Source: a virus (lineage: Duplodnaviria > Caudoviricetes). Taken from it: DNA of 64,000 nucleotides. The stretch lies in the IMG/VR virus record IMGVR_UViG_3300031851_000001, one strand, 5' to 3'. The position numbers and the translations under genes are program-made. Positions 1-23,386 of this stretch are shown piece by piece. Within the stretch, counting starts at the first letter, position 1. Each line of letters opens with the position of its first letter. A model generated the notes under the pieces. It did not search any database. It was not told where the DNA came from and saw nothing but the letters and a program-made list of their open reading frames with translations.

Positions 1-327
1 AGCGAACGTAAAGAGTTTATGATTACTGAATGCCATTATAGTGAGGATTTGCGTAAGCACGATATTTTAATATCACCTGGGATTACAAACTTTTATGACC
101 AACACACATTAAACGTATTCTTAGCGTTTCCAATTAAAGACGAAGAATATACTGTTACACTTAAATATGGTACGCCTTTAATGTCAATATACCCAATGCA
201 CGAAATGGAACTTGATATTAAAATGCATGAGGTAGAATCAAAAGAGAAATGGCATAGAATACAACACGTATATCCATCAACCTTTATCGGACGTTATCAC
301 TCCCGGAAACACACACGCAGTAAGTGA
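1..327 (+). CDS. Hypothetical phage protein, C-terminal part (frame is open from base 1, so 5'-truncated by the window)
   Basis: The frame runs without a stop from position 1 to 327. The PGI..F..QH..NV....GTPL..I.P pattern resembles a common uncharacterised T4-like phage family. It is the only plausible real plus-strand gene and converges on the rSAM cluster. Confidence 0.55.
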   Translation, partial: SERKEFMITECHYSEDLRKHDILISPGITNFYDQHTLNVFLAFPIKDEEYTVTLKYGTPLMSIYPMHEMELDIKMHEVESKEKWHRIQHVYPSTFIGRYHSRKHTRSK

Positions 328-1305
328 ATGGTGTTCCATATAAGATAGGACACCTTTATCAATACATGTCATTAAATTTTTACAAGAAGCACAATTGTCA
401 GTTTCACTTGAATAAGTCAACTGTGACATAAACTTATTTTCTTTTACTTGAGTCCATGACTCAATATCGTTTTCATCTTTGACCACAAAATTATCTGTAC
501 CAATTAAAGCAATATCATATACGAATGGTGTCCAAAAGAAACGTTCGTTACAATAAGTATAATTTAATTCTAAAGAACCACCTTGTGCTTGGTCAATAAA
601 TGTTTTAGGCATAAGGTCGTCGGCAAAGTCATAGTTTTTCCATTTCTCAATAAGATGCTTTTGCACTTTAGATTTAGGTGCTCGGAAGAATGATGGATTT
701 AAAGTAAGTATAGAATCAAACCGTTCCTCAACAAGTTTTGACATCTCGAGTACTTTATTATTCTCAACATCATCATTACCCATATTATATACCATATAAT
801 AATTTAAATCATCTGTCAACTCATTTAATATTCCTAATTTATATTCAAGTACATTCCAATTAACTGGCGGCTGCAGGGCTATGTTACAATCATACATAAA
901 TCCCTCGGCCTTTGGAATACTATTCAGCATTTCAATAATATTAAAATCAATCTTTTCTAATGTTGTAACGAATTGAATAGTAGTTACTTTACTTAAACAC
1001 TCTCGGAATGTTTCGTCTTTCAACAACTCGGTGATATTATTATTACCAAATAAATCAGTTGGACCAATATTAATGGTTGACACGCGATAGCCATTGGTAT
1101 TAAATAAATCAATGGCGTTGTTTAATCTATCAAATGATCCCATATTTGATCCGAGTTTATTGACAAAACAACCTTTACATTTAAACTCGCAGCCAGATAA
1201 TACTTCGCAATTAAATTGTACTTTGATTTCATGTCCTTCACTAAAGGATAAATCAAAATCTTTATCAGCTTGTGCAGCACGCTTATTGTTAGTAACTATT
1301 CCCAT
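277..1305 (-). CDS. Radical SAM protein (cluster paralog 5) with C-terminal Cys4 auxiliary-cluster motif
   Basis: CEFKCKGC = CX3CX2C near the N-terminus; IGPTDLF motif; C-terminal CASCKNLMTC-X16-C. Start moved from 1332 to the ATG at 1305 because GAGGT lies 5 nt upstream, inside the 3' end of the previous gene. Confidence 0.88.
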   Translation of the reverse strand: MGIVTNNKRAAQADKDFDLSFSEGHEIKVQFNCEVLSGCEFKCKGCFVNKLGSNMGSFDRLNNAIDLFNTNGYRVSTINIGPTDLFGNNNITELLKDETFRECLSKVTTIQFVTTLEKIDFNIIEMLNSIPKAEGFMYDCNIALQPPVNWNVLEYKLGILNELTDDLNYYMVYNMGNDDVENNKVLEMSKLVEERFDSILTLNPSFFRAPKSKVQKHLIEKWKNYDFADDLMPKTFIDQAQGGSLELNYTYCNERFFWTPFVYDIALIGTDNFVVKDENDIESWTQVKENKFMSQLTYSSETDNCASCKNLMTCIDKGVLSYMEHHSLTACVFPGVITSDKG

Positions 1306-2443
1306 GGTATACCTCATCATCATATAAACCAATTACATCTTTATTTAAGATGCATTCTTTTCTTCCATCAAACACAGTATCCATAATCATTGGAACCATT
1401 CTATTCGCACATATATTTAAATACTTACAACTGCCACACTCTTTTTCAGAACTTTTTTCAATTTGGCTATTGACAATCTCGTTCTTTTTGTTTAATATAT
1501 AATCAACAATATCGGCATCAGGTAACCAAAGCCAACTATTATCAACTTTAAAATCATCTGTATGGATTTGAGCATTCTCATATATGAATGGCGACAAATA
1601 CATATCTCCGTGGTATATACTAACTACAGAATAATGAAACGCTTTATGTGATACGTCACCTTGTAAGAAATGGAATTTGTTTTTAAACTTATGTGGATCT
1701 GCAGCCAATCGAGTTAACATATCATTCCATTCAAATAGTTTGTCTCCGTGCTTTGCGCTATGATTAAAAGAACGTACTACTGACGGTAATACTTCGATTA
1801 CTGTTTCATACCTAGCTCTAACAAATTCAATAGCAGGAAATAATATATCTTCTACACCTTGCACGATATTAGTAGCCATACTTATTTCAAAGTTTAAAGA
1901 ACTATTTTTAAATGTTTCAACTCTTTCATCAAGTGCATCTAGGTATACCTGATCATTCATTAATCTATTTAAATCCAAAGCAATTTGTACATCCCATGCT
2001 TCGACTACTTCGCCTAGCATTGAGTTTTCAATAGCTTTTATTTTACCTTCAATATCTTTTTCAGATAATGATCCGAGTATAGAACAGTTATGTTGGATAT
2101 TTCTATTATCTTCAGGCATCATGGATATGGCATCAGCAAGCCTTTGATTATTAATAATCTCTTCTAAATTTTGAGCACCATAAAAGTCGGTTGGGCCAAT
2201 CACAATGTCGTCTAATACAATATCAGTTCTATCTTTTAATTCAAATGCCAAGGAATGAAATGTTGCGATTGAGTTTGGGTTCCAATTACCTTTACGTTTA
2301 ACAAAACAACCCGGACACATATATGAACAACCTTCGAGTATTTCAAGGTTGACCTGTATTTTATATTCTTTCATATTGTCGATTGAAGTAAATTCCTCAC
2401 CTCGCCCACCGTCTACAATATTTTTCCAATCATTATTTAACAT
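1289..2443 (-). CDS. Radical SAM protein (cluster paralog 4)
   Basis: CSYMCPGC (CX3CX2C); IGPTDFY; YLSPFIYE; C-terminal CGSCKYLNIC-X18-C. Confidence 0.9.
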   Translation of the reverse strand: MLNNDWKNIVDGGRGEEFTSIDNMKEYKIQVNLEILEGCSYMCPGCFVKRKGNWNPNSIATFHSLAFELKDRTDIVLDDIVIGPTDFYGAQNLEEIINNQRLADAISMMPEDNRNIQHNCSILGSLSEKDIEGKIKAIENSMLGEVVEAWDVQIALDLNRLMNDQVYLDALDERVETFKNSSLNFEISMATNIVQGVEDILFPAIEFVRARYETVIEVLPSVVRSFNHSAKHGDKLFEWNDMLTRLAADPHKFKNKFHFLQGDVSHKAFHYSVVSIYHGDMYLSPFIYENAQIHTDDFKVDNSWLWLPDADIVDYILNKKNEIVNSQIEKSSEKECGSCKYLNICANRMVPMIMDTVFDGRKECILNKDVIGLYDDEVYHGNSY

Positions 2444-3590
2444 ATGATATATCCTTTAATCGTTTTAGTTCTGGATCGTCATCATCAGTAACTAAAAACT
2501 TTTTACGATAACCGTTCTTATCGTTTTCAACAGAATAACCATCCCATCCATACATTGTCTGAGCAGGACCATTATAATTGTTTATATTATTTAGCATATT
2601 CTCTTTTGGTGCTATGCAGCGGTCTACTCCAAGGTAATCCCTTAACATTATTATTTTTCTGTTATAACAACTAAAGAATAATGGGCAATCCTCGCATTCA
2701 GTACCTTTTGCTCTTTTAATTTGATGTTCAACCATTGGAACAACATCATCAAAAGATTTGACTTTAAACATATCATCATATATCGCCATGTTCTCATACA
2801 TAAATGGACTTAAATACCATTCACCGCGTTTGTAGTTTAATACAGTGTAATTAATACCTGCGTGAGAATGGTCTACCATAATATTGTTTAGCTTGGACTC
2901 TTGGTGCCATGTGCTAAAGTATTCGTTAAACTCATCAAGCGTTTTTAAGATTATGTTTGCTTTATGCGAACGAGATACTGACGGAATAAAATCTAATATA
3001 GTATCAAAACGTTTTACAGCCTGATCATGCAATGCCTCATAATCTAATCCATAATCTTTAATGTTAACAACAAACGTATAAGTAACCTCATGTTGAATGT
3101 GTGTATCTATATAGGCTAACATATCTGATATATGTTTTGTGTATTCGTCAGTAAAAAACTTATGTGGATTTGTAGCGATACCAATTTCTATTTCAGTATC
3201 TAAATTAATATTATCAATAAGGAAATCGCAAAACTTTTTAATATCACCATCAATAAGAGTAGAGACAAAAGCTAGGATAGGTGAGTTTTCATTAATGATA
3301 TCTACGAGTTCTGGCATTACTTGATAGAAATTTTCTGATGCTAAAAAGTCTGTAGGACCAATTAATATTTCATCAACAAGTATCCCTTGGTCAGTAATAG
3401 AACGTATGAACTCTTTTGCCATATATACTTGGCTTTTATCACTAGAGTTACCCCGTCGATGTACAAAGCATCCAGGGCACTTGTGGTGACAACCGTCTAG
3501 TACATCCATTTGAATTTTAACAGCGCTGACGGGCTTAGTTTGGGTCTCTGTCGTCATCTCATAATAGAGATTATTTTTAATCAGAGGCAT
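2433..3590 (-). CDS. Radical SAM protein (cluster paralog 3)
   Basis: CHHKCPGC; IGPTDFL; YLSPFMYE; C-terminal CEDCPLFFSC-X16-C, plus a ~55-aa C-terminal extension. Confidence 0.9.
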   Translation of the reverse strand: MPLIKNNLYYEMTTETQTKPVSAVKIQMDVLDGCHHKCPGCFVHRRGNSSDKSQVYMAKEFIRSITDQGILVDEILIGPTDFLASENFYQVMPELVDIINENSPILAFVSTLIDGDIKKFCDFLIDNINLDTEIEIGIATNPHKFFTDEYTKHISDMLAYIDTHIQHEVTYTFVVNIKDYGLDYEALHDQAVKRFDTILDFIPSVSRSHKANIILKTLDEFNEYFSTWHQESKLNNIMVDHSHAGINYTVLNYKRGEWYLSPFMYENMAIYDDMFKVKSFDDVVPMVEHQIKRAKGTECEDCPLFFSCYNRKIIMLRDYLGVDRCIAPKENMLNNINNYNGPAQTMYGWDGYSVENDKNGYRKKFLVTDDDDPELKRLKDISYVK

Positions 3591-4599
3591 ACATATATTC
3601 CTTTAATGCGACGCAGCTATCTAATCCTCGCGACTCCATATATAAATGTATATTACGTTCAGCACAACTCATCATATACTCGCAGCCATTACAATCATCA
3701 ACCTGTTGAGCATAATCTATATTTTCATATAAAGTATTCGCATCCATTGTTGTTTCAAAATTTGGAGTTCTTTGAATAATAACATCATACAAGAATGGAT
3801 TTAAATATAGTTTATTATTATAGAAGCTATAATTTTGGCAGCCATATCCATTAAACTTTGCATCAAAAAATGTATAAAGGTTAAGCCATTTCTTATCAAT
3901 ATCTTGCTCAATCATTTCACGTCTAAAGTTTGCAAGGTGTTGTTCTACTTTACCACGCGCGTTCCTATCTGTTAAAAACGACGGTGTAATTATAACTGGT
4001 GCATTATAGTCATCATATATCCGTTGACATAAGTCGTTATATGTGATACGCTTAAATACATCTTTATGATAATTAACTCTAAATTGAACTGAACCTAACT
4101 CAAACATTTTAAGTTTACGGTTCCAATCGTCTAGTTCTCCATCAAGGTACTTGTCTATATCTAAAACGATTTTAAAATCAATATCAGGTACTCTATGAAC
4201 ACCTTCATATAAACTCCATATCATATCAAGTTTAGTTCTTATCTCGGCATATGATTGAAGTAATGTTGATGTAAATCCAACTGCTGATATTTCGTAAAGC
4301 TTTTTCATATATGGATGTTTCATAATTTCATGGAAGTTCTCTGCATCAAAAATGTCAGTAGGTCCAATCGTTATCTCGTCAGGATAATATGCGCCGTCCA
4401 TTAATAAATTGTATAATGTTTCTAAGTATTCAGGTTTAGTAAGGTTTTTACGTGGAATAAAACATCCTGGGCACGACTGAGCGCAGCCATGTAATATGTC
4501 TAGGTTTATTTCAGTACGTAAGAAGTCTGTATTAATAGGGCTCTTATCTTTATCATACGTATAATAACCTGCATATGTTTTATTCAGTTTTACTATCAT
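3577..4599 (-). CDS. Radical SAM protein (cluster paralog 2)
   Basis: CAQSCPGC; IGPTDIF; YLNPFLYD; C-terminal CNGCEYMMSC-X16-C. Confidence 0.9.
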   Translation of the reverse strand: MIVKLNKTYAGYYTYDKDKSPINTDFLRTEINLDILHGCAQSCPGCFIPRKNLTKPEYLETLYNLLMDGAYYPDEITIGPTDIFDAENFHEIMKHPYMKKLYEISAVGFTSTLLQSYAEIRTKLDMIWSLYEGVHRVPDIDFKIVLDIDKYLDGELDDWNRKLKMFELGSVQFRVNYHKDVFKRITYNDLCQRIYDDYNAPVIITPSFLTDRNARGKVEQHLANFRREMIEQDIDKKWLNLYTFFDAKFNGYGCQNYSFYNNKLYLNPFLYDVIIQRTPNFETTMDANTLYENIDYAQQVDDCNGCEYMMSCAERNIHLYMESRGLDSCVALKEYMYASD

Positions 4600-5416
4600 C
4601 GGCTACACTAGCGGCATTGGCTTTAGCCTCTGCTTCGATTTCAGCTTGTAAATCTTCATCAGACTTTGGTTTTGGAATTTCAACGCTGTTAATAAACCCA
4701 GGAGGCATCATTGATAAAATGTTACTAGTAATATTACTTTGTGTCAATAAGAAAAACAAATCTTTACCAAAGTATGCAGGTTTATCATTATACATCTGTT
4801 TATTATATTCTTGTTTAAATCCAAGCATAGAACAAACTAATAGGAAACCATCCCAGCCATCTATAAGAAGGCGTGCAACGTTTGGACCACAATTTGCTGG
4901 CTTGTCAGTTACTTCAATTTGCTCAACAGCTTCTTTTACATCAACTTCAATTGCTTTGTTTTCATCTGATAAGTTTTCGTAAAATTTGCAGAGTGTGAAT
5001 GGAATAAGTTCAGCCATTGCATTACAAACATCTTCTATAAGTTCATAGTTTTTGTCTACGAAGTCGTGCAATTGTTCTTTACTAAAGAGGCCAAGTAATT
5101 GTTCTTCTAAGCCATTAAACTCATACATGTATCTTACTTTGATTGCCATTACAACAAACCGTGATAGCAGTGGTGCTTCTACGATAAAGTCTGATTTAAT
5201 ATATTCTATTAATAGTTCTTCGTCAACCTGCGCAAAGGTTGTTTTAAAATTAGTATTGGCCAAATAGATTAGAATATGTTTGGCTGATAACTTTTCTTTT
5301 GATGCTAAATAATCTACCCATAAAACAAAGTTTTCGTTGTCTTCTTTTAATTTATATATTTCAACTAAATTTTGCGGTGCTAATGGCAGCGTATATAAAG
5401 TTTGCTCTTCACTCAT
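4580..5416 (-). CDS. Hypothetical protein embedded in the rSAM cluster (278 aa, acidic, probably helical)
   Basis: Long ORF, co-directional with and overlapping the downstream rSAM gene by 20 nt. No motif recognised. Confidence 0.75.
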   Translation of the reverse strand: MSEEQTLYTLPLAPQNLVEIYKLKEDNENFVLWVDYLASKEKLSAKHILIYLANTNFKTTFAQVDEELLIEYIKSDFIVEAPLLSRFVVMAIKVRYMYEFNGLEEQLLGLFSKEQLHDFVDKNYELIEDVCNAMAELIPFTLCKFYENLSDENKAIEVDVKEAVEQIEVTDKPANCGPNVARLLIDGWDGFLLVCSMLGFKQEYNKQMYNDKPAYFGKDLFFLLTQSNITSNILSMMPPGFINSVEIPKPKSDEDLQAEIEAEAKANAASVADDSKTE

Positions 5417-5431
5417 AATAAAATCACTTTC

Positions 5432-6535
5432 TTATATCAATGGGTATTTATGAATTAAATATGGAATTCTGTTTTGACGTTTTGAAAAGAACTGAACATC
5501 TGTGTTAATTAATGCCAAGTCTTCTCTAATATTATCTGTGTTAAAGTTTCTTTCTAAAACTTTTTTAACAATAGGGAACACGTTATTGATTTCAGTATAT
5601 AAATCCATGTATTCCCAACCGTCAGCAGTCGTATCAGCTTTATTTTGATGAACGGCTATAAAGGCAGCGTCGTCTTTAACTTTATTCCACATTTCTTCTA
5701 ATTTATAAAACGCTAATGTATAGTTAGATTTATTAGCAGCATTTACATATACGTCTTTAAAGAATTGTTGTTTATCTGTAGCCCAGCCATTTTCTTCAGT
5801 TGCATTAGCATTCATATAATCAATAACTGACATAATATATGCCGAGTAGTGACGACGTGAAGTAAAGTGTTCCATAACATCTTTTGCCATAACTGGTGAA
5901 TGAATAGTAAATTTTTCAACAATCAATTCTGAAACGCCTGCACATGAATAGAAATCGTTTAAGAAGAATAGCAAGTCATAACTAAAGTTTTTACCATTCT
6001 GATATGTAATTACCCAAGGTGTTTCGCCTTCAGCATTTAATAAAGTATTTGTATGGTTTCTAACATCGTTATAAACTGTCGAGTTGCTCATTAAAGATAA
6101 TACTAAATCTTGGTTAATAACTGCTTCCATATAATGAGCAACCATCGCATTAATTGTTGTTGCATCTGCGTCAGGATAAAAACCACATGATGTTAACAAA
6201 CCAGCAGTATATTTTGCAAATACTTTAATCATATCCTCTTCGTCTGTAAACATAAGAATACGCTTATCACTATTTTGAATATAAGTAGGATTGGCAATAG
6301 TATCCCATTCTTCAAAATCTAATAGTTCTGATGAGCCTGATCGTGCACCTTCTGCCAGCGCTTCATACTCAGCAGGCTGAAGAAATGAGTCTACAAGGTC
6401 AGGCTGTACAATAGTAATTCGTCTTGGTTCAGCAGTGTGGTAAAAAGAATTTAATTCACCAATTACTGTTTCAACGTTTTGTGTATTCGTAATATACTTT
6501 TTATTATTTAAGTAATATAAACTCTGCCCAATCAT
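5432..6535 (-). CDS. Hypothetical protein embedded in the rSAM cluster (367 aa)
   Basis: Long ORF coupled to the upstream rSAM gene by an ATGA start/stop overlap at 6532-6535. No motif recognised. Confidence 0.75.
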   Translation of the reverse strand: MIGQSLYYLNNKKYITNTQNVETVIGELNSFYHTAEPRRITIVQPDLVDSFLQPAEYEALAEGARSGSSELLDFEEWDTIANPTYIQNSDKRILMFTDEEDMIKVFAKYTAGLLTSCGFYPDADATTINAMVAHYMEAVINQDLVLSLMSNSTVYNDVRNHTNTLLNAEGETPWVITYQNGKNFSYDLLFFLNDFYSCAGVSELIVEKFTIHSPVMAKDVMEHFTSRRHYSAYIMSVIDYMNANATEENGWATDKQQFFKDVYVNAANKSNYTLAFYKLEEMWNKVKDDAAFIAVHQNKADTTADGWEYMDLYTEINNVFPIVKKVLERNFNTDNIREDLALINTDVQFFSKRQNRIPYLIHKYPLI

Positions 6536-7707: not shown

Positions 7708-7708
7708 C

Positions 7709-8092
7709 TTATCTTCTTCCTCTCGAACTGTGGCAACTAGTATGACAACTTGCGTGACAATAGTATGCGTTAATAGTTCTGTTTGACATTCTTCCTTCAA
7801 TTAGATCAACTGTTCTTCTAGTTATATCTTCCAATGTATCAACAATATCCTGTCCGTAAATAATATTACCACTATTGATACCACCATCTACATAGTTATC
7901 ATATACATAGTAGTTTGCATTAACATATTCAAATCTATGGTAATGCCACTGTCCTCTAGTATAACTGGTAGCAGCACTACTAGCTCTTACATATGCGTTA
8001 ACATAAATTCCAACCGTTCTATCGAACGTTCTTAATTGTTGACCACTATATGTTCTTACCCACGACCTAACGTCATTTCTATCCATAGTCAT
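7709..8092 (-). CDS. Putative rSAM substrate/precursor B, 127 aa, ending YYCHASCHTSCHSSRGRR
   Basis: Paralog of 8092..8472. C-terminal (C-H-x-S)x3 repeat. TAATG coupling with the upstream paralog. Sits immediately upstream of the first rSAM gene. Confidence 0.8.
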   Translation of the reverse strand: MTMDRNDVRSWVRTYSGQQLRTFDRTVGIYVNAYVRASSAATSYTRGQWHYHRFEYVNANYYVYDNYVDGGINSGNIIYGQDIVDTLEDITRRTVDLIEGRMSNRTINAYYCHASCHTSCHSSRGRR

Positions 8093-8472: not shown

Positions 8473-8473
8473 A

Positions 8474-11400
8474 CTATACTTTAACCTCTACTTCACCATT
8501 TTCACTATCAGATATCGCAATACCAATAATATCAAAGCTATTTATACCAGCAGTACCATAGTCTACGGCACGGCCTTTACCATCACGATCAGCAATAATC
8601 CATTGACCTTTAGTTGCATCGCCATTAATAAGAACTGGAATACGTCCTTTAAGAGCAACGAATGGGTTCATCTTAGACTCAATAGAGTCATCGTTGTCAT
8701 ATTCAATATGCTCATTCATTCTGTATGCAGGATTTGTAGAAACCGCACCAGCAACTGGCATTCCGGGTTGATACAATGTTACTTCTTTATCGCCGCCGAT
8801 ACCTAGGATATACCCAGGACCATAAATCGCGTCTGCTTCATATCTCTCTGCAAGGTCAGCCCATCTTGCTGACGTAGCCGTACCAACAAACACACCATCG
8901 TTTGCGATATAAGATCTATCAGAACCATTTTGTCTAAACTGACAAATTCTGTTTGAGTTTCCGCCTGCAACGATATAGAAACGGTTTGAGTGATATTCAA
9001 TTTTACCAACGTCGTTTCCTGGGTTACCTGTCCAGCTTTCGTTACCTGATTCTTCAAATCTAATACATGGTGAATAACCATCTTGGTGGCGAGTTCTTAA
9101 CTGCCATTGTCCTGCAGCATTTAAATCACCGGACCATGTTCTGTCACCATACATCCAACGACACATTGTACCGTTATATGTCGCTCTAAGTTGGAAAGAC
9201 ATAGATGAAGAGTTATTGTTACCAGTAGCAGCCCAATACTGACCTTGATAAGAATAAAAGTGTCCACCTGTACCTTGGTTATATAATCCATTGCGTGCTG
9301 AATCATTTCGGAGCCAACTCCTAGCATAAATATCGTTGCCTCTCATACCTGTATTAAAGTTAGAAAACGATGCTGGATCACAATAATAACCGGTGTTGTT
9401 TGAGTCATAGAAGATAGGCGCACGGAAGCTAAATCCTGAGTAAGCATAGTTTGCATCACCATAAACTCTAAACAAGTCAGAGTTACCAATACCACCAGTT
9501 GCCTGACCGTGTCGGCCAATATAGAAGTCTGCGCCAGAAGTATTGTTGTTATTTGAGTCTAAGTTAATATACACAGAACCATATGAGTTGATACGAATAT
9601 CGTCAGAAGTGTTACCATTAAGATCTCTAGCAGAGATTGAGTGGTTTGTGCTGTTATCACCGTATAAGGTAATAAAGTCACCACGATCACGCATATCAAA
9701 CTGGTCAGCTCGTACAACATTCATTTGAGATGTAGATGCAGGGTCTGTATAACGACCCGTGTTATTATTGTCATAGAATATTTGAGCTCTTAATGAACTA
9801 CGTGCTTGTAATGAGTTATTTACATAAACATCATTAGCACCTAATGGATCAGTCGCATTGTTGATTGACATAACCTGATTATTCATGTTGTAGTCATCAT
9901 AGAAACGCATACCATTATAGTTTGCATTAGCACCAAACTTAATACCTGTATGGAAAGCAATTCTTAAATCAGGGTAACGATATGACCAACCACCGCCTTC
10001 ACGGTAAATAGCATAAGCAGCTGATTCATTAGATGAAAAGTATAAACCAAACGTATCGTCTTGTGATACATCATCTTTATGTATAAACCTATTTGCTCGA
10101 ACATCGCCAGCAAAACTGTTGTCACCGGCTGGATTTAAGAAGTATGAAGAGTTGTTACGATCGTAATAAACATCGGCATACATATTACCATATACTTCAG
10201 TTGTACCACCGCGAGTTCTTAATGCCCATCCTGCACTATTATTAAGGAAACCAATATCATTCGAGTTATTTGCATATACATAACCTCGAATAGTACCGGC
10301 GTTTTCATCTCTAAATCGTATACCATTAGCAGATGAACCACCAGCAATGTTCCAATAGTCATCATTATCTGAATAGAAATGCTGACCTGTTGCAGTGTTA
10401 TATAAACCTCTACCATTTGTATCGTTACGGAACCAACCATCGTTATATACTTCAGAACGAATATCAAGTGTGTGCATTACCGATGTACTAGCAAAGTCAC
10501 CATAATAACCTGTGCTATCTCTATCGTAATATCTGCCAGCGTAAGCTCCGCCTGTTACGAATACATTACCGTCACCACGAACGAGAAGATTTGTTGTTCC
10601 GGATAATCCGCCATCTTTAAATGCGATGTCTTCACCACCCGATGTAGCAATAATTAAATGATTATCGTTTGTATCAGTAGCTTGGATATAACCACGAACA
10701 TTACCAGCACCCGTAATAAATTGAGCTTCACCACCATCAGCAAACTGAATAACATCAACTTTTGATGTATTTGATGGATCCATATAGAAAGACGTATTAT
10801 CTGAGTCAACTAATCTACTTGCATAGAAGTATGAACTTGTACCACCACCTGGGTTAGCGTTATAGATAGCAATATCAGAATAAGAAGAATAGGCTGTACC
10901 TGAGTTCCATGACTGTTGCCATAGACGCATACCACGACCAGACTTTTTAAACATCAATAAGTTATCTGAACCACCAGAAGAGTCTGTGTAAGATCTTAAG
11001 TGTAAGTAATCGGCATATGGTGCAGTGTTATCGTTGTTCCAAGATGTGAAACCAAACGTTAGTCGACCCGCAGTATCTTCATTTGGTTCAATAATACGGT
11101 TATCTTTTCGTAACAATGTTTGAGCATAACCATCAACATTACCTTGGATTACGTTATCAACTTGTAGTGTTAATAGTCTTGAAGTACCGTTACCATCAAT
11201 TTTATATGCAGTGTTATCACTATCATACCAAATTGGTGAACGTAACTGATTAGTACCTAAGAAGAAACCATCTTTAGTAGAGGCTTGTTCTGTACCAGCC
11301 CAATGAAGTTCTGTATCACCTGCTTGGCGATAGATCGTAGCCCACTGATTGTTCGTATCGTTATAGATACCAGCAATACCAGCTCCACTTGACATGAATA

Positions 11401-14400
11401 CCCAGTCATCGTTAATAGCATAACCTGCGTAACCACCTTTATTACCAGTTACACTAATGGAACCATAATTACCAGTAGATGTATCTAATTGATAAGTTGA
11501 GCCACCAAATTGAACTGCGTTTGCACGAAGAACATTAGTAAGAGATGTTGAAGCAGGATCTAAATAATAAGCATTATCGTCTGAGTCATAGAACCGACTT
11601 GCATAAGAACCGTTTAGAGCAGTATGCGTACCTGTTACAACAACATTACGAGACATAGCCCAATCACCATTAGCATCAGTCCAGTTATCGTCAGTAACAA
11701 ATCTTAGTCTGTCTGGGTTAGTACCCTCTGCCATTCTAAGCATTTGAGTTCCACCAGCAACCAACTGCATATCGTCAGCGCCAATAAATCTGATATATGT
11801 ATTTGTATCACCATTATGTCTGATATATTCATCAGCACGTATTTCGTTAAATACAGATGTTGAAGCAGGGTCAGCATAATAAGCTGAGTTATTAGAGTCA
11901 TAAAACCTTTGAGCATATGAATAACGTCCAGCCCAAACATCACCGTCAGACTCAACACGTAAACGATATGTACCATTACCGGCGCCAGATGTAAATTGTA
12001 AATTACCACCAGAATTTGTTGCTAAGTCATTTGGTGACTCATAAATTTGCCATAGGTTTCCGCCGTTCCATGCTAGTCCTTCAGACGGTCCCGGATCGTT
12101 GAATGTTAATTTGTTTACGTTATTAATATTACCATTTGTCCAATCCCAGTTACCTGCGACTTTAGATGGACCTTTTGGTTCAATATAATAGTTAGTATCG
12201 TTAAGATCTCTAAACCTACCAGCATCAATAATATTTGCTGATATGTTGTCTGCAGAAACATCACCAGTAACAGTAAGATCCCCACCGATTGAAGCATCAG
12301 TAACGACAGTTAATCCTTCAGCTTTTATACTCGATTGTACATCAACTCTCTTTAGAATTGGTGGACCAAATTCACGAGTTGCACCGTTTGGCGCAAAGTT
12401 CATAAGAGAAACTAATCTAACAAACCGAACACCTGCACCATCTGAACCATTAAATGGCGTATGGGTAGTTGGAAGCGTATGCTCACCTTTATATTCAGTC
12501 CAGCCTGTGGCGGTGTGGTCAACCGCAGATGCCGCGAAGTATACAATACCATCGTTAGCAGCAATTGGATTTTTATCTTTATCGTATTGTCTAACACCTA
12601 AGTAAAATAAACCGCCAGTACCACTGATGCGTCGTACTGCCTGTTCTGCATAAATTGTTTCTCCCGGCTCAACTGGAATAAAGTCAGAGTCAAAATCTCT
12701 GTAACCGTTAGTTCTTAATACATAACTTGATGCGAATGGGCCATCACCATTTAAAACATAATCACTGGTAGATGTAGTTGCGCTATTTTCAATACCTTGC
12801 ATTGGTTGGATAACTCGTTTATCCCAATAATCTGATGCATCAAACATTTTCATATCAGCAAGGCCAGAGCCATACGTTTTTAACAATCCAAGATTTTCAT
12901 TACCACCATTAAGAGCAAGTGATCCAAATATACCAGCGCCATAAGCTTGTATGTCACCATTTTCTGAGAACCAGAAACGCTCACCTATATTATTAAACGA
13001 AATACCCATCGCAGAGCGAGAGTTTCTTGTTTGGTGGAATATAGATGGGAAGTTAGCATCAGCAGTAGTATTTTGTAAAACGATCAAACGTTGTTGTGCA
13101 GACTTAACTTCAAGTGGATATGTAGTATTATTAAAGATTGCGCTATCGCCTGCCTTAACAGATTTAAGTCTAGATTGACCAGACGGTTGCATATAAAATG
13201 CAGCGTTATTTAAATCATAGAATATTGGAGAACGCATACTGTTTGGAGCAGAACCATAACCGTTTTCAGCACCAATTTGGTGAATGTTATTTGAATGTAA
13301 TCTTGTAAAGTTATTTCTGTTTGCAGTCAGTGACCATTCATTATCAGTCTCGTTATACAGACCCATCTCTGTAGCACCGCTGGATATAAAGCCCCAGTCA
13401 TTACTAATCATATAACCTGCATAACCATCTCTTTCGCCTTCAACCATAATAGTCCCTTTAGGACCTGATGGTGAGTCGATAGTTAGAGAACTGCCATCCA
13501 TTTGGATTTGATTTGTTCTAACAACATTAAGTATAGATGTTGAAGCAGGATCTAAATAATAAGCATTGTTTCCTGAGTCATAATAACGTGGAGCGTAAAC
13601 ATCAAGGTTAAAGTCAGCAGAGTTATCATCAATGTTTAATCTCTGTGTATTATTGATAAACAATTTATAGATACCAGCGGCTGAGAAACCGAAGTATGTA
13701 TCTTCATCACCTTTATGTCTAATATAATCGTCTAAGTCAATTCTATTCATTACTGATGTACCAGCAAAGTCACCATAATAAGCGTTGTCATTATAATCGT
13801 AATAAGTAGGGAAATATGCCATGTCATTGGCATCGGCTGCTGATATGCCGCCGTTGAAATTCACTCTCTTATTGAATAGGAATATTGCTCTGTCTGTATC
13901 AAACTGAGCTGACCCTGCAACCTTAGATCCAATATCTAAAGTACCAGTTGGTGTTGTGAACCTATGAGCATTGGCTGTATTTGGCTCAAACTTGTAAGTT
14001 CCACCAGCATCAGAGAATATTGGAGAACGCATATCTGTTGCAGCTTCAGCATATGTTGAATATACATCAAGCTGTGCGGTTCCACCGGCAGTAAATATAA
14101 TTTGGTCAGCGCCAAAACCAATTTTAGTATTAGTATTTCCGTCGTGTATAATTTCACCGACAAGACTTATATTATTCATTCGTGATGTACTAGCAAAGTC
14201 ACCGTAGAATAAAACATCATCTGCATCTAGGTATTGAGCGAATGAAGCATTACCTGTTGATGTGAGTAATTTATTATTTCTAATTCTAAGATTGTTGGCA
14301 TCGTTCATATAGAAACCGCCACCTTGACCAAAGCCAAGTTCATCCATTCTTAGGAATGTAGCAGTTCCATTACCGACAACATATGCATCATCAGTACCAT

Positions 14401-16861
14401 TAAGTTGAAGCGATCCATCTATGTGAAGTTTACTATCTGTTTTTGTTCCGCTATTTAATATCGGTGTATTATCATGTTGAGTATATGCGACTGAGTCATT
14501 ACCGATTGTAATATCCCCTGTGCTAAGCATTGCTAATCTAGTTGATGCACCACTATCGTAGAAGTAAACTCCTTGGTCTGCATCAGATATAAAGTAAGCA
14601 TTCCTTGAGTTATCACCACGAATAGAGAACGCCGCTGCGCCATCTGATAAGAACTCTGCCCAATAAGCATTTTTACTTTGGTATGGATTACCACCAATGT
14701 CAATTCTATTAAGTGATAAGAGCGATAGCCCGCCATTATTACCAGCGATTGAAATTGTAGGGTTAGTAGTTGCACCTAATCCTGCGTATGGCGCGATCAT
14801 AATTCCGCCAGTGCCTGAGTTATTATCTACAAGATTAAAGTCTGTGCCTGCTCCAACATTAATACGACCACCAACTCTAAGTGAGTCAGAAGCACCAGTT
14901 TGACCAAGATCCAAATAATTTGTGGTTCCTGATGTATCATAATATACCGGTGCTTTCATATTGTCAACGGCAGTTACACCAGAATCTCTTACGAATAATC
15001 TATCAGAACCACCAGTTCTTACTTTAAATTCGTTTGCAGCAGAGAATGTAATAAGTGTATCAGCATCTCCTTGATGAATAATATCACCTTGTAAACTAAT
15101 ATTATTCATTACCGATGTACCAGCAAAGTCACCATAATATGAGTTATTATCAGAGTCGACAAATTGTGGTGCAAGAACATTATACGTGAATGTTGCATTT
15201 GAATTATTAAGAGTTAATCGTGCAGCGCCATTTGTTGTAAATGTTTGCGTATCTGCGCCAAAAGAAATCTTATTATTAGTATCACCATTATGGAATAAGT
15301 CATCGTTAATCCCAAGGTTATTAAATACCGATGTACCGGCAGGATCAGCATAAAAGTTATTGTCACTTGAGTCAAGGAACCTTGGTGCGATTAAGTCAAC
15401 TGATGATGTAACCGACGTATCAGTGATTGCTAATCTTGTTGCTCCACCTGTGTTTAAATTGATTGTGTCGGTATCAAATGATAACTTAGTATCGGTATCA
15501 CCATTATGGAAAAGATCGCTGTCAATTCCAATCGTATTCATTACAGATGTACCAGCAAAGTCACCAAGATATGCATTATTACCGCTATCTAAATAGCGAG
15601 GAGCCTTTACATCAACTAATGATGTTACGTCAGTGTCAGTAATTAATAACCTTTGACCTCCACCAGTATAAACTTCAAATTGGTTAGCAGCCGGGAAATT
15701 AATATATGTATCAGCATCGCCATCGTGCGAAATTGTCCCAACAAGACTGATGTTATTTAACCTAGATGTATCAGAAGGCCAAGATAGATATGTATTATCA
15801 GCAGAGTCTAAAAATTTATCAGCAATAAGATTACGACCAACAGTCCAATCTCCATTTAAATCTGAATATGTTTGATAAGCAAATACGCCATCAAGGAAAC
15901 CAATTTTACCATTGTCTGATGCCATAACTCTATTGTTACCCGCACCACGCATAGTAAGTAGTGCTGAGCCAGTTCCATCACCAATAGCAACTGTACCTTC
16001 AAACTCTAAGTTACCTGTAGCAACATCGTTAACATCTGAGCGAATAAACTGAGCAGCTTCTAATCCATCAACCGTGTCAGCATCAAATAAGTTACCTGCA
16101 CCTTCATCATCAGTTGTAATAATACGACCTAAGTCTGTACCTCCTGATATTAGTTTAAACCAATCATTTGTTTCATCCCATTGTAAAGATGAATTTGGTA
16201 AATTACCACGAAGAACTTCCCAACCAGCATTTTCTGTCGGAGCTCCTGTAGTAAAATTACTATTAAGAGTAATTAAGTTATCGGCAATTAAAACTGTTTC
16301 TGATTGAACTTCGGTACGTGTACCTTGTACTGTAAGGTTACCAGTGATAATATAATCACCGTCCAATGTATCATTTTGGTCAGAACGAACAAACGATAAT
16401 GAGTCAATTCCATCAAGAAAATCGGCATCTAAGCCTGATCCTGTACCATCGTTACCACTATACCAAACTGGTACGCCGTTAATGGAAGGAACATTAGTAA
16501 AATCCGCTTCAGTAGTATTAATTGTAAGCTGGACGTTATTACCGGCTTTGAATACCAAACCGCTTGCCGTATTATCATTAAATTTTATTTCGTTTGAGCC
16601 TGAGGTATTGTAAATACTGTAGTCACCACTACCTGTATTTTTAATTCGTAATGCACCTACGCCGCCTGCAAAATCCATTAAAGGAGTATCAATACCTCCT
16701 GTGTTCTCAACAGTAATTGGAACCGATGAGCCTGTGCTTGTAAGTTTGGCTGTGCCTGATACTTGTAATTTATTTACACCATCATCAGAGGATGTGCCGA
16801 CAAGAACGTTATTCTCCGATTGAAGACCGTTCTTTACTATGAATTTCTTATCATTTGCCAT
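8474..16861 (-). CDS. Very long tail fibre/receptor-binding protein (~2795 aa) with C-terminal peptidase G2-like autocleavage chaperone
   Basis: N-terminal KKFIVKNGL motif typical of marine T4-like fibre proteins; ~18 YDS.NNAYY.DPASTS repeats; C-terminal ARWADLAERYEAD...GRIPV pattern typical of G2-type intramolecular chaperones. The ATG at 16861 is spaced correctly from a GGAG Shine-Dalgarno site; the GTG at 16870 is too close. Confidence 0.85.
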   Translation of the reverse strand: MANDKKFIVKNGLQSENNVLVGTSSDDGVNKLQVSGTAKLTSTGSSVPITVENTGGIDTPLMDFAGGVGALRIKNTGSGDYSIYNTSGSNEIKFNDNTASGLVFKAGNNVQLTINTTEADFTNVPSINGVPVWYSGNDGTGSGLDADFLDGIDSLSFVRSDQNDTLDGDYIITGNLTVQGTRTEVQSETVLIADNLITLNSNFTTGAPTENAGWEVLRGNLPNSSLQWDETNDWFKLISGGTDLGRIITTDDEGAGNLFDADTVDGLEAAQFIRSDVNDVATGNLEFEGTVAIGDGTGSALLTMRGAGNNRVMASDNGKIGFLDGVFAYQTYSDLNGDWTVGRNLIADKFLDSADNTYLSWPSDTSRLNNISLVGTISHDGDADTYINFPAANQFEVYTGGGQRLLITDTDVTSLVDVKAPRYLDSGNNAYLGDFAGTSVMNTIGIDSDLFHNGDTDTKLSFDTDTINLNTGGATRLAITDTSVTSSVDLIAPRFLDSSDNNFYADPAGTSVFNNLGINDDLFHNGDTNNKISFGADTQTFTTNGAARLTLNNSNATFTYNVLAPQFVDSDNNSYYGDFAGTSVMNNISLQGDIIHQGDADTLITFSAANEFKVRTGGSDRLFVRDSGVTAVDNMKAPVYYDTSGTTNYLDLGQTGASDSLRVGGRINVGAGTDFNLVDNNSGTGGIMIAPYAGLGATTNPTISIAGNNGGLSLLSLNRIDIGGNPYQSKNAYWAEFLSDGAAAFSIRGDNSRNAYFISDADQGVYFYDSGASTRLAMLSTGDITIGNDSVAYTQHDNTPILNSGTKTDSKLHIDGSLQLNGTDDAYVVGNGTATFLRMDELGFGQGGGFYMNDANNLRIRNNKLLTSTGNASFAQYLDADDVLFYGDFASTSRMNNISLVGEIIHDGNTNTKIGFGADQIIFTAGGTAQLDVYSTYAEAATDMRSPIFSDAGGTYKFEPNTANAHRFTTPTGTLDIGSKVAGSAQFDTDRAIFLFNKRVNFNGGISAADANDMAYFPTYYDYNDNAYYGDFAGTSVMNRIDLDDYIRHKGDEDTYFGFSAAGIYKLFINNTQRLNIDDNSADFNLDVYAPRYYDSGNNAYYLDPASTSILNVVRTNQIQMDGSSLTIDSPSGPKGTIMVEGERDGYAGYMISNDWGFISSGATEMGLYNETDNEWSLTANRNNFTRLHSNNIHQIGAENGYGSAPNSMRSPIFYDLNNAAFYMQPSGQSRLKSVKAGDSAIFNNTTYPLEVKSAQQRLIVLQNTTADANFPSIFHQTRNSRSAMGISFNNIGERFWFSENGDIQAYGAGIFGSLALNGGNENLGLLKTYGSGLADMKMFDASDYWDKRVIQPMQGIENSATTSTSDYVLNGDGPFASSYVLRTNGYRDFDSDFIPVEPGETIYAEQAVRRISGTGGLFYLGVRQYDKDKNPIAANDGIVYFAASAVDHTATGWTEYKGEHTLPTTHTPFNGSDGAGVRFVRLVSLMNFAPNGATREFGPPILKRVDVQSSIKAEGLTVVTDASIGGDLTVTGDVSADNISANIIDAGRFRDLNDTNYYIEPKGPSKVAGNWDWTNGNINNVNKLTFNDPGPSEGLAWNGGNLWQIYESPNDLATNSGGNLQFTSGAGNGTYRLRVESDGDVWAGRYSYAQRFYDSNNSAYYADPASTSVFNEIRADEYIRHNGDTNTYIRFIGADDMQLVAGGTQMLRMAEGTNPDRLRFVTDDNWTDANGDWAMSRNVVVTGTHTALNGSYASRFYDSDDNAYYLDPASTSLTNVLRANAVQFGGSTYQLDTSTGNYGSISVTGNKGGYAGYAINDDWVFMSSGAGIAGIYNDTNNQWATIYRQAGDTELHWAGTEQASTKDGFFLGTNQLRSPIWYDSDNTAYKIDGNGTSRLLTLQVDNVIQGNVDGYAQTLLRKDNRIIEPNEDTAGRLTFGFTSWNNDNTAPYADYLHLRSYTDSSGGSDNLLMFKKSGRGMRLWQQSWNSGTAYSSYSDIAIYNANPGGGTSSYFYASRLVDSDNTSFYMDPSNTSKVDVIQFADGGEAQFITGAGNVRGYIQATDTNDNHLIIATSGGEDIAFKDGGLSGTTNLLVRGDGNVFVTGGAYAGRYYDRDSTGYYGDFASTSVMHTLDIRSEVYNDGWFRNDTNGRGLYNTATGQHFYSDNDDYWNIAGGSSANGIRFRDENAGTIRGYVYANNSNDIGFLNNSAGWALRTRGGTTEVYGNMYADVYYDRNNSSYFLNPAGDNSFAGDVRANRFIHKDDVSQDDTFGLYFSSNESAAYAIYREGGGWSYRYPDLRIAFHTGIKFGANANYNGMRFYDDYNMNNQVMSINNATDPLGANDVYVNNSLQARSSLRAQIFYDNNNTGRYTDPASTSQMNVVRADQFDMRDRGDFITLYGDNSTNHSISARDLNGNTSDDIRINSYGSVYINLDSNNNNTSGADFYIGRHGQATGGIGNSDLFRVYGDANYAYSGFSFRAPIFYDSNNTGYYCDPASFSNFNTGMRGNDIYARSWLRNDSARNGLYNQGTGGHFYSYQGQYWAATGNNNSSSMSFQLRATYNGTMCRWMYGDRTWSGDLNAAGQWQLRTRHQDGYSPCIRFEESGNESWTGNPGNDVGKIEYHSNRFYIVAGGNSNRICQFRQNGSDRSYIANDGVFVGTATSARWADLAERYEADAIYGPGYILGIGGDKEVTLYQPGMPVAGAVSTNPAYRMNEHIEYDNDDSIESKMNPFVALKGRIPVLINGDATKGQWIIADRDGKGRAVDYGTAGINSFDIIGIAISDSENGEVEVKV
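9360..15820 (-). repeat. Dispersed protein repeat (F/Y)xD(S)xNxxYYxD(P/F)A(S/G)TS, ~18-19 copies; several extend to a ~72-aa unit with H.GD.DT...F
   Basis: Read from the translation, e.g. RYLDSGNNAYLGDFAGTSVMN, RYYDSGNNAYYLDPASTSILN, RFYDSDDNAYYLDPASTSLTN, IFYDSNNTGYYCDPASFS. Confidence 0.9.
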
Positions 16862-16898
16862 TCGGTTCACTCTCCCCAGTTAGGCTTATTCTTTATTG

Positions 16899-16906
16899 TA
16901 TTTATA
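16899..16906 (-). promoter_or_regulatory. T4-type late promoter TATAAATA
   Basis: Exact TATTTATA on the + strand, in the short gap upstream of the long fibre gene. Confidence 0.8.
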
Positions 16907-16910
16907 ATGA

Positions 16911-19016: not shown

Positions 19017-19078
19017 ATGTATGCCCCTTTGTTATAATAGATATATATCTTAATAATCAATAATATAGTTTTAATAAA

Positions 19079-22963: not shown

Positions 22964-22965
22964 TG

Positions 22966-23292: not shown

Positions 23293-23318
23293 TTTTTCAT
23301 CTCTTTATTACTTTTATC

Positions 23319-23326
23319 TATTTATA
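23319..23326 (-). promoter_or_regulatory. T4-type late promoter TATAAATA
   Basis: Exact intergenic match upstream of the 108-aa gene. Confidence 0.8.
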
Positions 23327-23365: not shown

Positions 23366-23386
23366 AATGACTGAGATTTGCAAGAA

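What the first reader, a model, noticed from the sequence alone, without database searches (positions are those of the whole stretch)
277..16906. The rSAM cluster appears to be part of a late tail-fibre transcript, so the substrate may be a virion protein
Seen: a TATAAATA late promoter at 16899-16906 precedes the 2795-aa fibre gene. Precursor A starts 1 nt after its stop, and coupling continues to position 277. I saw no gap large enough for a promoter or terminator in between (eye scan only). The same window has an S74-chaperoned fibre followed by a tip adhesin (42246-41163). Inference: by analogy, the proteins after the G2-chaperoned fibre may be fibre-tip proteins that are chemically crosslinked during assembly. 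That would be radical-SAM maturation of a phage particle, for stability, receptor binding or metal capture.
Basis: inference. Interest (0 to 1): 0.75.

Follow-up and report, generated by a model that had tools for sequence, protein, structure and literature searches.

The report
Late phage fibre module with radical-SAM-matured virion protein
A marine T4-like phage places, directly after a giant tail-fibre gene, two small proteins ending in CHxSCHxSCHxSRGRR and five radical-SAM enzymes, all under late promoters; a homologue of the small protein was found in purified virions of another phage, so a phage-particle protein matured by radical chemistry is plausible.

Summary
TATAAATA at 16899-16906 (minus strand) lies 38 nt before the fibre ATG (16861). 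Genes are packed from there to 277: the largest gap is 15 nt and most genes overlap. Sigma-70-like and terminator-like hits are at background.

Both are invariant at synonymous sites in relatives. The cluster is therefore probably read from nested late promoters, not only from the fibre promoter.

- The tail CHxSCHxSCHxxRGRR-stop occurs in at least 116 IMG/VR contigs, always at the C-terminus.
- An rSAM gene lies beside it in 106 of 113 loci.
- A fibre gene lies within four genes upstream in 75 of 91 informative loci.
- In Agrobacterium phage Atu_ph07 the homologue gp170 was detected in virions (8 peptides, 35% coverage), peaking in the top gel band. The neighbouring rSAM and cupin proteins were not detected.

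The fibre's C-terminal domain is a phi29-gp12-type autochaperone.

A fibre-tip location and covalent crosslinking remain untested. About 12-16 loci lack a nearby fibre gene, and one homologous cluster lies in a bacterial chromosome.

This scan noted the same cluster before, in overlapping windows.

The parts
16899..16906 (-). T4-type late promoter motif TATAAATA of the fibre gene
   Evidence: It lies 38 nt before ATG 16861. The relative L081 has the same motif 42 nt before its fibre gene.
8474..16861 (-). Giant tail-fibre gene (2795 aa from ATG 16861; the stop codon is included)
   Evidence: Fifty-five related loci carry a homologue, and the part shared by all is only the last ~150 aa.
8477..8857 (-). 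C-terminal phi29-gp12-type (G2-like) intramolecular chaperone domain, residues D2669-V2795. Predicted autocleavage site is A2668|D2669 in W-A-D-L-A-E.
   Evidence: D, L, A and E are invariant in 39 sequences. Foldseek matches: 3suc at E 3.3e-4, 3gqh at E 5e-3. Profile against PDB: 6qz9 at E 0.0036, aligning NTWS-DFAE with the ADLAE motif; the solved C-terminal fragment 3gqh starts at that D. Pfam gave no Peptidase_G2 match.
8539..8546 (-). Internal late-promoter-like TATAAATA inside the fibre's 3' end, 74 nt before the precursor A ATG
   Evidence: It is present in 12 of 31 type A loci, at -72 to -77. In 11 unique sequences of this clade the codons are GGT/GAT-ATA-AAT in 10, while neighbouring synonymous sites vary freely.
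8092..8472 (-). CHxS-tailed protein A (126 aa); the tail CHASCHSSCHSSRGRR is encoded at 8095-8142
   Evidence: C111, H112, S114, C115, H116, S118, C119, H120, S122 and RGRR are invariant in 45 sequences. The AlphaFold model has mean pLDDT 84.7.
7709..8092 (-). CHxS-tailed protein B (127 aa); the tail CHASCHTSCHSSRGRR is encoded at 7712-7759
   Evidence: Matches phrog_35144 at E 4.5e-6.
6532..7707 (-). Radical SAM paralogue 1 (Cx3CxGC, GPTD, C-terminal Cx2Cx5C...C)
   Evidence: sub-threshold Radical_SAM, Fer4_12 and SPASM hits. Cys, G-P-T-D and C-terminal Cys are invariant or near-invariant in 45 sequences.
6723..6730 (-). Second internal late-promoter-like TATAAATA, inside rSAM1 and about 190 nt before the 367-aa gene
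   Evidence: It is found at -150 to -204 in 11 other type A loci. The Ile codon is ATA and the Asn codon AAT in 15 of 15 sequences that keep Gly-Ile-Asn (19 unique aligned), and the first T is kept in 12 of 15.
5432..6535 (-). Conserved 367-aa protein of unknown family
   Evidence: Homologues in 23 loci by phmmer. No Pfam or PHROG family.
4580..5416 (-). Conserved 278-aa protein of unknown family; in type B clusters its homologue directly follows the CHxS gene
   Evidence: Homologues in 38 loci. The same motif is seen in the RSL2, DT01, Atu_ph07 and bacterial copies.
3577..4599 (-). Radical SAM paralogue 2
2433..3590 (-). Radical SAM paralogue 3
1289..2443 (-). Radical SAM paralogue 4
277..1323 (-). 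Radical SAM paralogue 5 (start uncertain, 1305-1332). Its 3' end overlaps by 51 nt the 3' end of a convergent plus-strand gene (19-327).

Best explanation
The stretch is a late-expressed host-recognition module of a marine T4-like myophage that resembles the pelagimyophages.

Gene content. A giant fibre carries a phi29-gp12-type self-cleaving C-terminal chaperone. It is followed by two ~126-aa proteins. Each has a folded N-terminal domain, a conserved helix, and the invariant tail (CHxS)3-RGRR at the very C-terminus. Five divergent radical SAM paralogues and two conserved unknown proteins complete the operon. More rSAM and cupin genes lie in a convergent operon beyond the left edge of the window.

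Transcription (motifs and their conservation shown, function inferred). The module is read late, from the fibre promoter at 16899-16906 and from two internal TATAAATA promoters at 8539-8546 and 6723-6730. These would give nested transcripts that boost the CHxS genes and the downstream enzymes.

Mechanism (inferred). In the cytoplasm the rSAM enzymes recognise the conserved helix-plus-tail module and modify the Cys/His/Ser tail, producing crosslinks or a metal-binding site. The matured protein is then built into the virion, most likely in association with the fibre whose gene travels with it.

What is shown: the gene content, the promoter motifs and their conservation, the genomic linkages, and the virion presence of a homologue.

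What is inferred: that the tail is the rSAM substrate, the chemistry of the modification, and the position of the protein in the particle.
For: Late promoters. There are five intergenic TATAAATA in the window and all 9 are on the coding strand. The two internal motifs are conserved at synonymous sites. In the other gene order (type B) a TATAAATA lies within 100 nt before the CHxS gene in 24 of 73 loci. The same test gives 0 of 64 for the gene before it and 0 of 69 for the gene after it.

Family. At least 116 IMG/VR contigs carry the tail, and it ends the protein in 144 of 144 cases. An rSAM-like gene lies within 3-4 genes in 106 of 113 loci.

Fibre linkage. A fibre gene lies 1-4 genes upstream on the same strand in 75 of 91 informative loci: 65 with the G2-like C-terminal domain and 10 of the jumbo-phage 'WPPxW' type. 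The only fibre in this window with the ADLAE domain is the one beside the CHxS genes.

Virion presence. Atu_ph07 gp170 is the homologue: 296 aa, 31.89 kDa, ending CHSSCHASCHNSRSRR. It is listed in the virion ESI-MS/MS table with 8 unique peptides, 35.16% coverage and maximum abundance in gel band 1. Most other listed 29-37 kDa proteins peak in bands 6-8, with a few lower. The fibre gp176 (66.07 kDa) is also present, whereas rSAM gp171, cupin gp172 and gp144-169 are absent (PMC6102473 Table S5).

Protein-like substrate. The model of protein A has mean pLDDT 84.7. Lengths in the family range from 124 to 309 aa. Types A and B share only the last ~55 residues (hhalign probability 99%).

Precedent. 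The bacterial HXS system shows rSAM enzymes maturing a whole protein that carries HxS repeats (PMC13128918).
Against: No data exist for this phage itself: no proteome, no mapped transcript ends, no detected modification.

The Atu_ph07 preparation was PEG-purified only. Its list of 131 proteins includes terminase, RNR and RecA-like proteins, so some entries are contaminants.

The loading buffer listed in that paper contains no reducing agent. The band-1 position of gp170 could therefore reflect disulfides or an SDS-resistant oligomer rather than an enzymatic crosslink.

gp170 is a type B protein. It shares only the C-terminal module with the window's 126-aa proteins.

About 12-16 of 91 loci have no fibre gene within about 5 kb. 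One homologous cluster lies in a true bacterial chromosomal context.

The number of intragenic TATAAATA in the window (4) is what chance predicts. Only their conservation argues for function.

The rSAM assignment rests on motifs and sub-threshold family hits.
Confidence: 0.55

Rival explanations
1. Classical RiPP pathway. The CHxS proteins are precursors whose C-terminal core is modified by the rSAM enzymes, cut off and released as a small bioactive peptide or cofactor. The position beside a fibre gene reflects only that accessory cassettes accumulate in the hypervariable host-recognition island.
For: The core-like invariant motif sits at the extreme C-terminus and is preceded by a conserved helix that could act as a leader recognition element. 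There are several rSAM/SPASM-like enzymes. rSAM cassettes have been noted as variable inserts in the pelagimyophage host-recognition cluster (PMC7029224). Some clusters are unlinked to fibre genes and one is in a bacterial chromosome.
Against: No protease or transporter family was found in the operon. The N-terminal parts are large (up to ~290 aa), confidently folded and variable. The full-length homologue gp170 is in virions with 35% coverage. In three phage lineages the module is kept beside a fibre gene.
Confidence: 0.15
2. Assembly factor. The CHxS proteins are non-structural helpers, for example a metal or Fe-S carrier or a scaffold, needed for folding or maturation of the adjacent fibre. 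Alternatively the rSAM enzymes act on the fibre itself and the CHxS proteins are cofactor-like partners.
For: There is tight linkage to the fibre's C-terminal chaperone-type domain. The Cys/His-rich tail could bind metal (inference). The best sub-threshold hits of the rSAMs are to NrdG-type activases, which act on proteins.
Against: gp170 was detected in virions. The tail's invariance, including Ser and RGRR, and its universal pairing with rSAM genes fit a substrate better than a carrier.
Confidence: 0.12
3. Infection-stage effector related in kind to the bacterial HXS defence. The matured, basic CHxS-RGRR tail acts on DNA entry or on the cell envelope. It would serve superinfection exclusion or counter-defence, either as an ejected protein or after release in the infected cell.
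For: HxsA is an rSAM-matured protein with HxS repeats that blocks phage DNA entry (PMC13128918). The phage tails contain three H-x-S triads and end in RGRR.
Against: No HxsA, B, C or D family match even at E 0.1. No signal peptide is apparent in protein A (read from the sequence). Late rather than early promoters drive the gene.
Confidence: 0.08

Closest known systems
Bacterial HXS antiphage system (HxsA effector with His-Xaa-Ser repeats matured by rSAM enzymes HxsB/HxsC with HxsD; PMC13128918)
   Same: Several rSAM enzymes are encoded beside a whole protein that carries tandem H-x-S triads. The substrate is a functional protein, not a short peptide.
   Different: No sequence match to any Hxs family. 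Here each triad is preceded by an invariant Cys. The repeats lie at the extreme C-terminus and are followed by RGRR. There are 5-9 rSAM paralogues plus cupin/2OG genes. The system is phage-borne, driven by late promoters and linked to a fibre gene.
Sactipeptide, ranthipeptide and SCIFF type RiPPs, and QhpD/QhpC (rSAM-SPASM enzymes that make Cys thioether crosslinks)
   Same: A Cys-rich C-terminal motif lies next to rSAM enzymes that have an extra C-terminal Cys cluster. QhpC is an example in which the crosslinked product stays part of a protein complex (from my own knowledge).
   Different: The window's rSAMs reach no curated threshold. They have GPTD where canonical enzymes have GGEP, and only four C-terminal Cys. 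The chemistry is unknown. No leader protease or exporter is present.
phi29 gp12 pre-neck appendage (Peptidase G2 autochaperone) and the Klebsiella phage depolymerase Dpo31 chaperone domain
   Same: The fibre's last 127 aa match in fold and in profile. The D-x-x-E motif aligns with the start of the released gp12 fragment.
   Different: The Pfam Peptidase_G2 model gave no hit. Here this domain travels with a downstream CHxS/rSAM cassette. To my knowledge, phi29 has no counterpart of that cassette.
Fibre-tip cassettes such as T4 gp37-gp38 or fibre plus Tfa pairs
   Same: A fibre C-terminal domain and the genes directly downstream are inherited together on fibre shafts of very different length (258 to 2824 aa).
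   Different: No sequence or fold similarity of the CHxS proteins to any known adhesin or assembly protein. Binding was not shown.

Membership tests
Radical SAM superfamily (PF04055) with SPASM/twitch extension | Cx3Cx2C cluster-binding motif near the N-terminus | tested here: met
   C34, C38 and C41 (numbering of paralogue 3) are invariant in 45 sequences. The motif is visible in all five paralogues.
Radical SAM superfamily (PF04055) with SPASM/twitch extension | Score above the curated Pfam or NCBIfam threshold | tested here: not met
   Best Radical_SAM score is 18.2 bits against a cut-off of 29.5. Fer4_12 scores 17.3 against 22. SPASM TIGR04085 scores 13.9 against 27.
Radical SAM superfamily (PF04055) with SPASM/twitch extension | C-terminal Cys motif for auxiliary Fe-S cluster(s) | tested here: inconclusive
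   C299, C302 and C308 are invariant and C325 is nearly invariant. That gives four Cys, not the seven of a full SPASM domain. No structure was predicted for the enzymes.
HXS system (HxsA-D; TIGR03976-03979) | Sequence match of substrate and enzymes to the Hxs family models | tested here: not met
   No Hxs model appears among NCBIfam hits at E up to 0.1 for the substrates or the rSAMs.
HXS system (HxsA-D; TIGR03976-03979) | Tandem His-Xaa-Ser repeats in a protein encoded beside rSAM genes | tested here: met
   Three H-x-S triads are invariant in 45 type A and 37 type B sequences. rSAM neighbours are present in 106 of 113 loci.
Peptidase G2 / phi29 gp12-type intramolecular chaperone | Pfam PF11962 match | tested here: not met
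   No hit at E up to 1 for the last 199 or 599 aa. The only hit is a weak one to PF22758 Phage_cement, E 0.02.
Peptidase G2 / phi29 gp12-type intramolecular chaperone | Fold of the gp12 C-terminal fragment, and the Asp/Glu (D-x-x-E) motif at the cleavage site | tested here: met
   Foldseek matches: 3suc at E 3.3e-4, 3gqh at E 5e-3. hmmsearch aligns invariant D-L-A-E with D692-F-A-E695 of 6qz9, where fragment 3gqh begins. That these two residues are catalytic is from my memory of the literature.
Peptidase G2 / phi29 gp12-type intramolecular chaperone | Actual autocleavage and release of the domain | not testable with these tools
   The only hint is that Atu_ph07 gp176 (66 kDa) peaks in gel band 4 together with 50-56 kDa proteins.
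T4-type late promoter | TATAAATA about 25-40 nt before a start codon on the coding strand, enriched in intergenic DNA | tested here: met
   Five of 9 motifs lie in about 1.7% of the window that is intergenic, and all 9 are on the coding strand.
T4-type late promoter | A transcript 5' end just downstream of the motif, appearing late in infection | not testable with these tools
   Only assembled contigs of RNA libraries were available. They carry no strand or end information.
Virion structural protein | Detected in purified particles | tested here: inconclusive
   Met for the homologue Atu_ph07 gp170 in a PEG-purified preparation. Nothing exists for this phage or for any type A protein.

The most novel reading that the evidence does not exclude
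Phages, and some predatory Bdellovibrionota, use a dedicated battery of radical SAM enzymes to install covalent modifications in the (CHxS)3-RGRR tail of a protein that is then built into the tail-fibre apparatus. That would be the first enzymatic, radical-based maturation of a virion component. It would be a widespread determinant of fibre stability or receptor binding in marine T4-like phages and in jumbo phages.
Probability: 0.35. Interest if true: 0.9.

Novelty: new variant of a known kind. Interest (0 to 1): 0.75.

Why it matters
I found no report of radical SAM maturation of a phage particle protein in the literature searches made here.

If it is real, it adds a new class of post-translational chemistry to virion assembly. 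The family is abundant in ocean viromes: at least 116 IMG/VR contigs, probably including pelagimyophages. It is also present in cultivable jumbo phages (RSL2-like phages, pPa_SNUABM_DT01, Atu_ph07), where it can be tested directly.

It would also connect to the newly described bacterial HXS defence, which uses rSAM-matured HxS-repeat proteins on the host side.

Finally, it gives a concrete function to the unexplained rSAM cassettes in phage host-recognition islands.

Tried and rejected
- Structure-based test of binding: three copies of the fibre's last 200 aa with three copies of protein A. It returned no answer (score 0.00, controls not run). This is not evidence either way.
- Fold searches with the protein A model in PDB (Foldseek), in the representative PDB set (VIA-align, best Z 5.6) and in the ESM Atlas (best TM 0.43-0.44). 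No convincing match. The Atlas feature search gave nothing.
- Megablast of 1-17000 and tblastn of protein A against cultured phages: no match. Relatives appeared only through the rSAM protein and type B proteins.
- RNA evidence: 14 RNA-labelled public runs hold parts of the stretch, and one covers all of 1-17200. All are assembled contigs without strand, level or end information, and DNA carry-over cannot be excluded. They were not used as evidence of transcription.
- Virion proteome of Ralstonia phage RP31 (PMC5468394). ORF78 next to its rSAM cluster is in the virion, but I could not show that it is a CHxS protein, so it was not used.
- The RSL2 virion proteomics paper is not held in the library.
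- A profile of the rSAM paralogues against PDB sequences gave nothing meaningful.
- No whole genome is held for the window.
- A gp23 capsid search in five MAGs carrying the motif found nothing and its control did not ring, so it is uninformative.
Full report
**Anatomy**

All genes of the window lie on the minus strand. From 16861 down to 277 the order is as follows.
- A 2795-aa fibre (8474-16861).
- Two paralogous proteins of 126 and 127 aa (8092-8472 and 7709-8092), ending CHASCHSSCHSSRGRR and CHASCHTSCHSSRGRR.
- A radical SAM-like protein (6532-7707).
- Two proteins of no known family, 367 aa (5432-6535) and 278 aa (4580-5416).
- Four more radical SAM-like paralogues (3577-4599, 2433-3590, 1289-2443, 277-~1323).

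The five paralogues share an invariant Cx3CxGC motif, a G-P-T-D motif and a C-terminal Cx2Cx5C...C motif. They reach no curated Pfam or NCBIfam threshold.

The rest of the window is a T4-type baseplate and fibre module.

G+C drops from about 0.38-0.40 in the fibre to 0.32-0.34 in the enzyme genes. That fits a cassette.

**The observation**

TATAAATA at 16899-16906 is real and lies 38 nt before the fibre ATG.

All nine TATAAATA of the window are on the coding strand. Five lie in the ~1.1 kb of intergenic DNA, 25-38 nt before start codons. The phage therefore uses T4-type late promoters, and this motif is one of them.

- One base lies between the fibre stop and the precursor A start.
- There is a one-base overlap between A and B, and one base between B and rSAM1.
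- Further on come overlaps of 4 to about 20 nt and a single 15-nt gap.

Sigma-70-like and terminator-like matches are at the level of shuffled sequence.

A T4-type late promoter needs only the octamer, so the lack of gaps does not exclude internal promoters. Two of the four intragenic TATAAATA lie in this operon.

The first is at 8539-8546, inside the last 70 codons of the fibre and 74 nt before precursor A.
- In the clade of relatives with the same fibre end it is present at -72 to -77.
- In 11 unique sequences the three codons that carry it read GGT/GAT-ATA-AAT in 10. The neighbouring conserved Tyr, Gly, Thr, Ile and Ala codons vary freely at their third positions. The two Ile codons a few residues downstream are ATA in only 10 of 22 cases.

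The second is at 6723-6730, inside rSAM1.
- It recurs at -150 to -204 before the 367-aa gene in 11 other type A loci, including clades that lack the first motif.
- Nineteen unique rSAM1 sequences were aligned there. In the 15 that keep Gly-Ile-Asn, Ile is ATA and Asn is AAT in 15 of 15, and the first T is kept in 12 of 15.

The loci are related, so these are not independent trials. Even so, the contrast with neighbouring synonymous sites indicates selection on the DNA sequence.

My reading is that the module is transcribed from nested late promoters. This supports late expression. It corrects the picture of a single fibre transcript.

**The family**

In all 144 occurrences a stop codon follows the motif directly.

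Two gene orders exist.
- Type A, as in this window: fibre, CHxS, CHxS, rSAM1, 367-aa, 278-aa, then rSAM2-5, followed by a convergent cupin-plus-rSAM operon.
- Type B: fibre (about 400-1100 aa), cupin, canonical rSAM/SPASM (~345 aa), CHxS protein (170-309 aa), a 278-aa-like protein, then more genes, among them in many loci further rSAM-like and oxygenase-like genes.

An rSAM-like gene lies within 3-4 genes of the CHxS gene in 106 of 113 loci. The other seven loci are truncated.

Types A and B share only the last ~55 residues, a helix plus the tail (hhalign probability 99%). The N-terminal domains differ in sequence and size.

The model of protein A is confident (mean pLDDT 84.7). It has a helix, a long beta-hairpin and a long helix, and the tail is the least confident part. 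It matches no known fold.

In type B the CHxS gene, and essentially only that gene, is preceded by TATAAATA within 100 nt: 24 of 73 loci, mostly at -25 to -48. The gene before it scores 0 of 64 and the gene after it 0 of 69. So in two different gene orders the CHxS gene has acquired its own late promoter embedded in or just after the preceding gene. That is what one expects of a protein needed in larger amounts than the enzymes.

**Link to the fibre**

The fibre homologues found in 55 loci share only the last ~150 residues. Upstream of that, the fibres range from 258 to more than 2800 aa.

This shared domain has invariant D-L-A-E. Its model matches pre-mature phi29 gp12 (3suc, E 3.3e-4) and the released gp12 C-terminal fragment (3gqh, E 5e-3). 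A profile of the domain aligns "..W-A-D-L-A-E.." with "N-T-W-S-D-F-A-E" of gp12 (6qz9, E 0.0036). The solved C-terminal fragment begins exactly at that Asp. The profile also matches the chaperone domain of the Klebsiella phage depolymerase Dpo31.

Pfam's Peptidase_G2 model gave no hit. Membership therefore rests on fold and profile, not on the curated model. The predicted cleavage site is A2668|D2669.

No other fibre in the 64-kb window has this domain.

Counting all loci with enough upstream sequence, 75 of 91 have a fibre gene 1-4 genes upstream on the same strand. Of these, 65 have the G2-like end. Ten, all of jumbo-phage type including RSL2 and DT01, have a different end, '..AWRQVWPPLWQ'.

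Sixteen loci fail this crude test. A few are false negatives. About 12, mostly one family, really have no fibre gene within about 5 kb.

**Experimental evidence from the literature**

tblastn with type B proteins found the family in Agrobacterium jumbo phage Atu_ph07. Its cluster reads fibre (607 aa, with the ADLAE domain), three small opposite-strand genes, cupin, rSAM, CHxS protein (296 aa, ending CHSSCHASCHNSRSRR), a 278-aa-like protein, then rSAMs.

The calculated masses (66.07, 21.66 and 31.89 kDa) match gp176, gp177 and gp170 in the published virion table to the second decimal. That fixes the gene numbering.

- gp170 was identified with 8 unique peptides and 35.16% coverage, in gel bands 1-9, most abundantly in band 1, the top of the gel.
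- Most other listed proteins of 29-37 kDa peak in bands 6-8, with some lower (bands 11-13). Only gp170 and two poorly supported entries of similar size peak in band 1.
- The fibre gp176 is present. The rSAM, the cupin and gp144-169 are absent.

Two caveats apply. The phage was only PEG-purified, and the list contains evident non-structural proteins. The loading buffer as described has no reducing agent, so the high-mass form could be disulfide-linked or an SDS-resistant oligomer.

**What is known that resembles it**

The bacterial HXS defence system was shown in 2026 to use two rSAM enzymes to mature a protein effector with five His-Xaa-Ser repeats, installing a +8 Da change in an SHRSS motif (PMC13128918). 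The phage tails contain three H-x-S triads, each preceded by Cys. No Hxs family model matches the phage proteins. The resemblance is in kind, not in membership.

My literature searches found no paper that describes the CHxS proteins or links them to virions.

**Weighing**

Four lines favour a virion-associated protein substrate over a released peptide.
- The gp170 proteomics.
- The dedicated late promoters.
- The folded, variable N-terminal domains.
- The inheritance of the cassette together with a fibre C-terminal domain.

A fibre-tip location, binding to the fibre and covalent crosslinking are not shown. The chemistry is unknown.

The clusters unlinked to fibre genes and the bacterial copy show that the system does not strictly need a phage fibre.

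I put 0.55 on the late, rSAM-matured, virion-associated reading. I put about 0.3 on a location at the fibre itself.

This scan had already noted the same cluster in overlapping windows.

Noticed in passing
L143/L144 (G001 contig C4, 177100-217000); also L121, L124-L126, L128, L133-L135: The same CHxS-RGRR protein, with rSAM genes and homologues of the 367-aa and 278-aa proteins, occurs in MAGs labelled Bdellovibrionota (10-11 of 23 genome hits by record title). In one 299-kb contig it sits in a genuine bacterial context: PilQ secretin, PilM, an ABC transporter, CarA/CarB and aspartate carbamoyltransferase. A pilin-like protein with a Peptidase_S74 domain lies 9 kb away. The system is therefore not purely viral.
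   Followed up: partly
window 1-327 (+) and relatives L017, L095, L109, L116: A convergent plus-strand gene ends at 327 and overlaps the 3' end of rSAM5 (277) by 51 nt. In relatives the convergent operon reads cupin-like, three rSAM-sized genes, a 132-aa gene and another rSAM-sized gene. The whole island thus has about nine rSAM genes.
   Followed up: partly
L132, L136, L131 (genome contigs): Some family members carry four CHxS repeats instead of three, for example CHSSCHSSCHGSCHGSRGRR.
   Followed up: no
window 1-8000 versus 8000-24000: G+C is 0.32-0.34 across the rSAM genes and 0.38-0.40 across the fibre and neighbouring structural genes. This suggests the enzyme cassette has a different history from the fibre.
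   Followed up: no
The label is unverified.
   Followed up: partly
window 14939-14967 (-): A near-consensus sigma-70-like site (TTGACA-17-TATTAT, 11 of 12) lies inside the fibre gene. The overall count of such sites is at background, and conservation was not checked.
   Followed up: no
L001 (RSL2), L002 (DT01), L003, L004, L054, L101: Jumbo-phage versions of the cluster follow a different fibre type, which has repeated NPH.TT.AQVGLG motifs and a conserved C-terminus ..AWRQVWPPLWQ(D). They also include DHFR-like and several 2OG-Fe(II) oxygenase-like genes.
   Followed up: no
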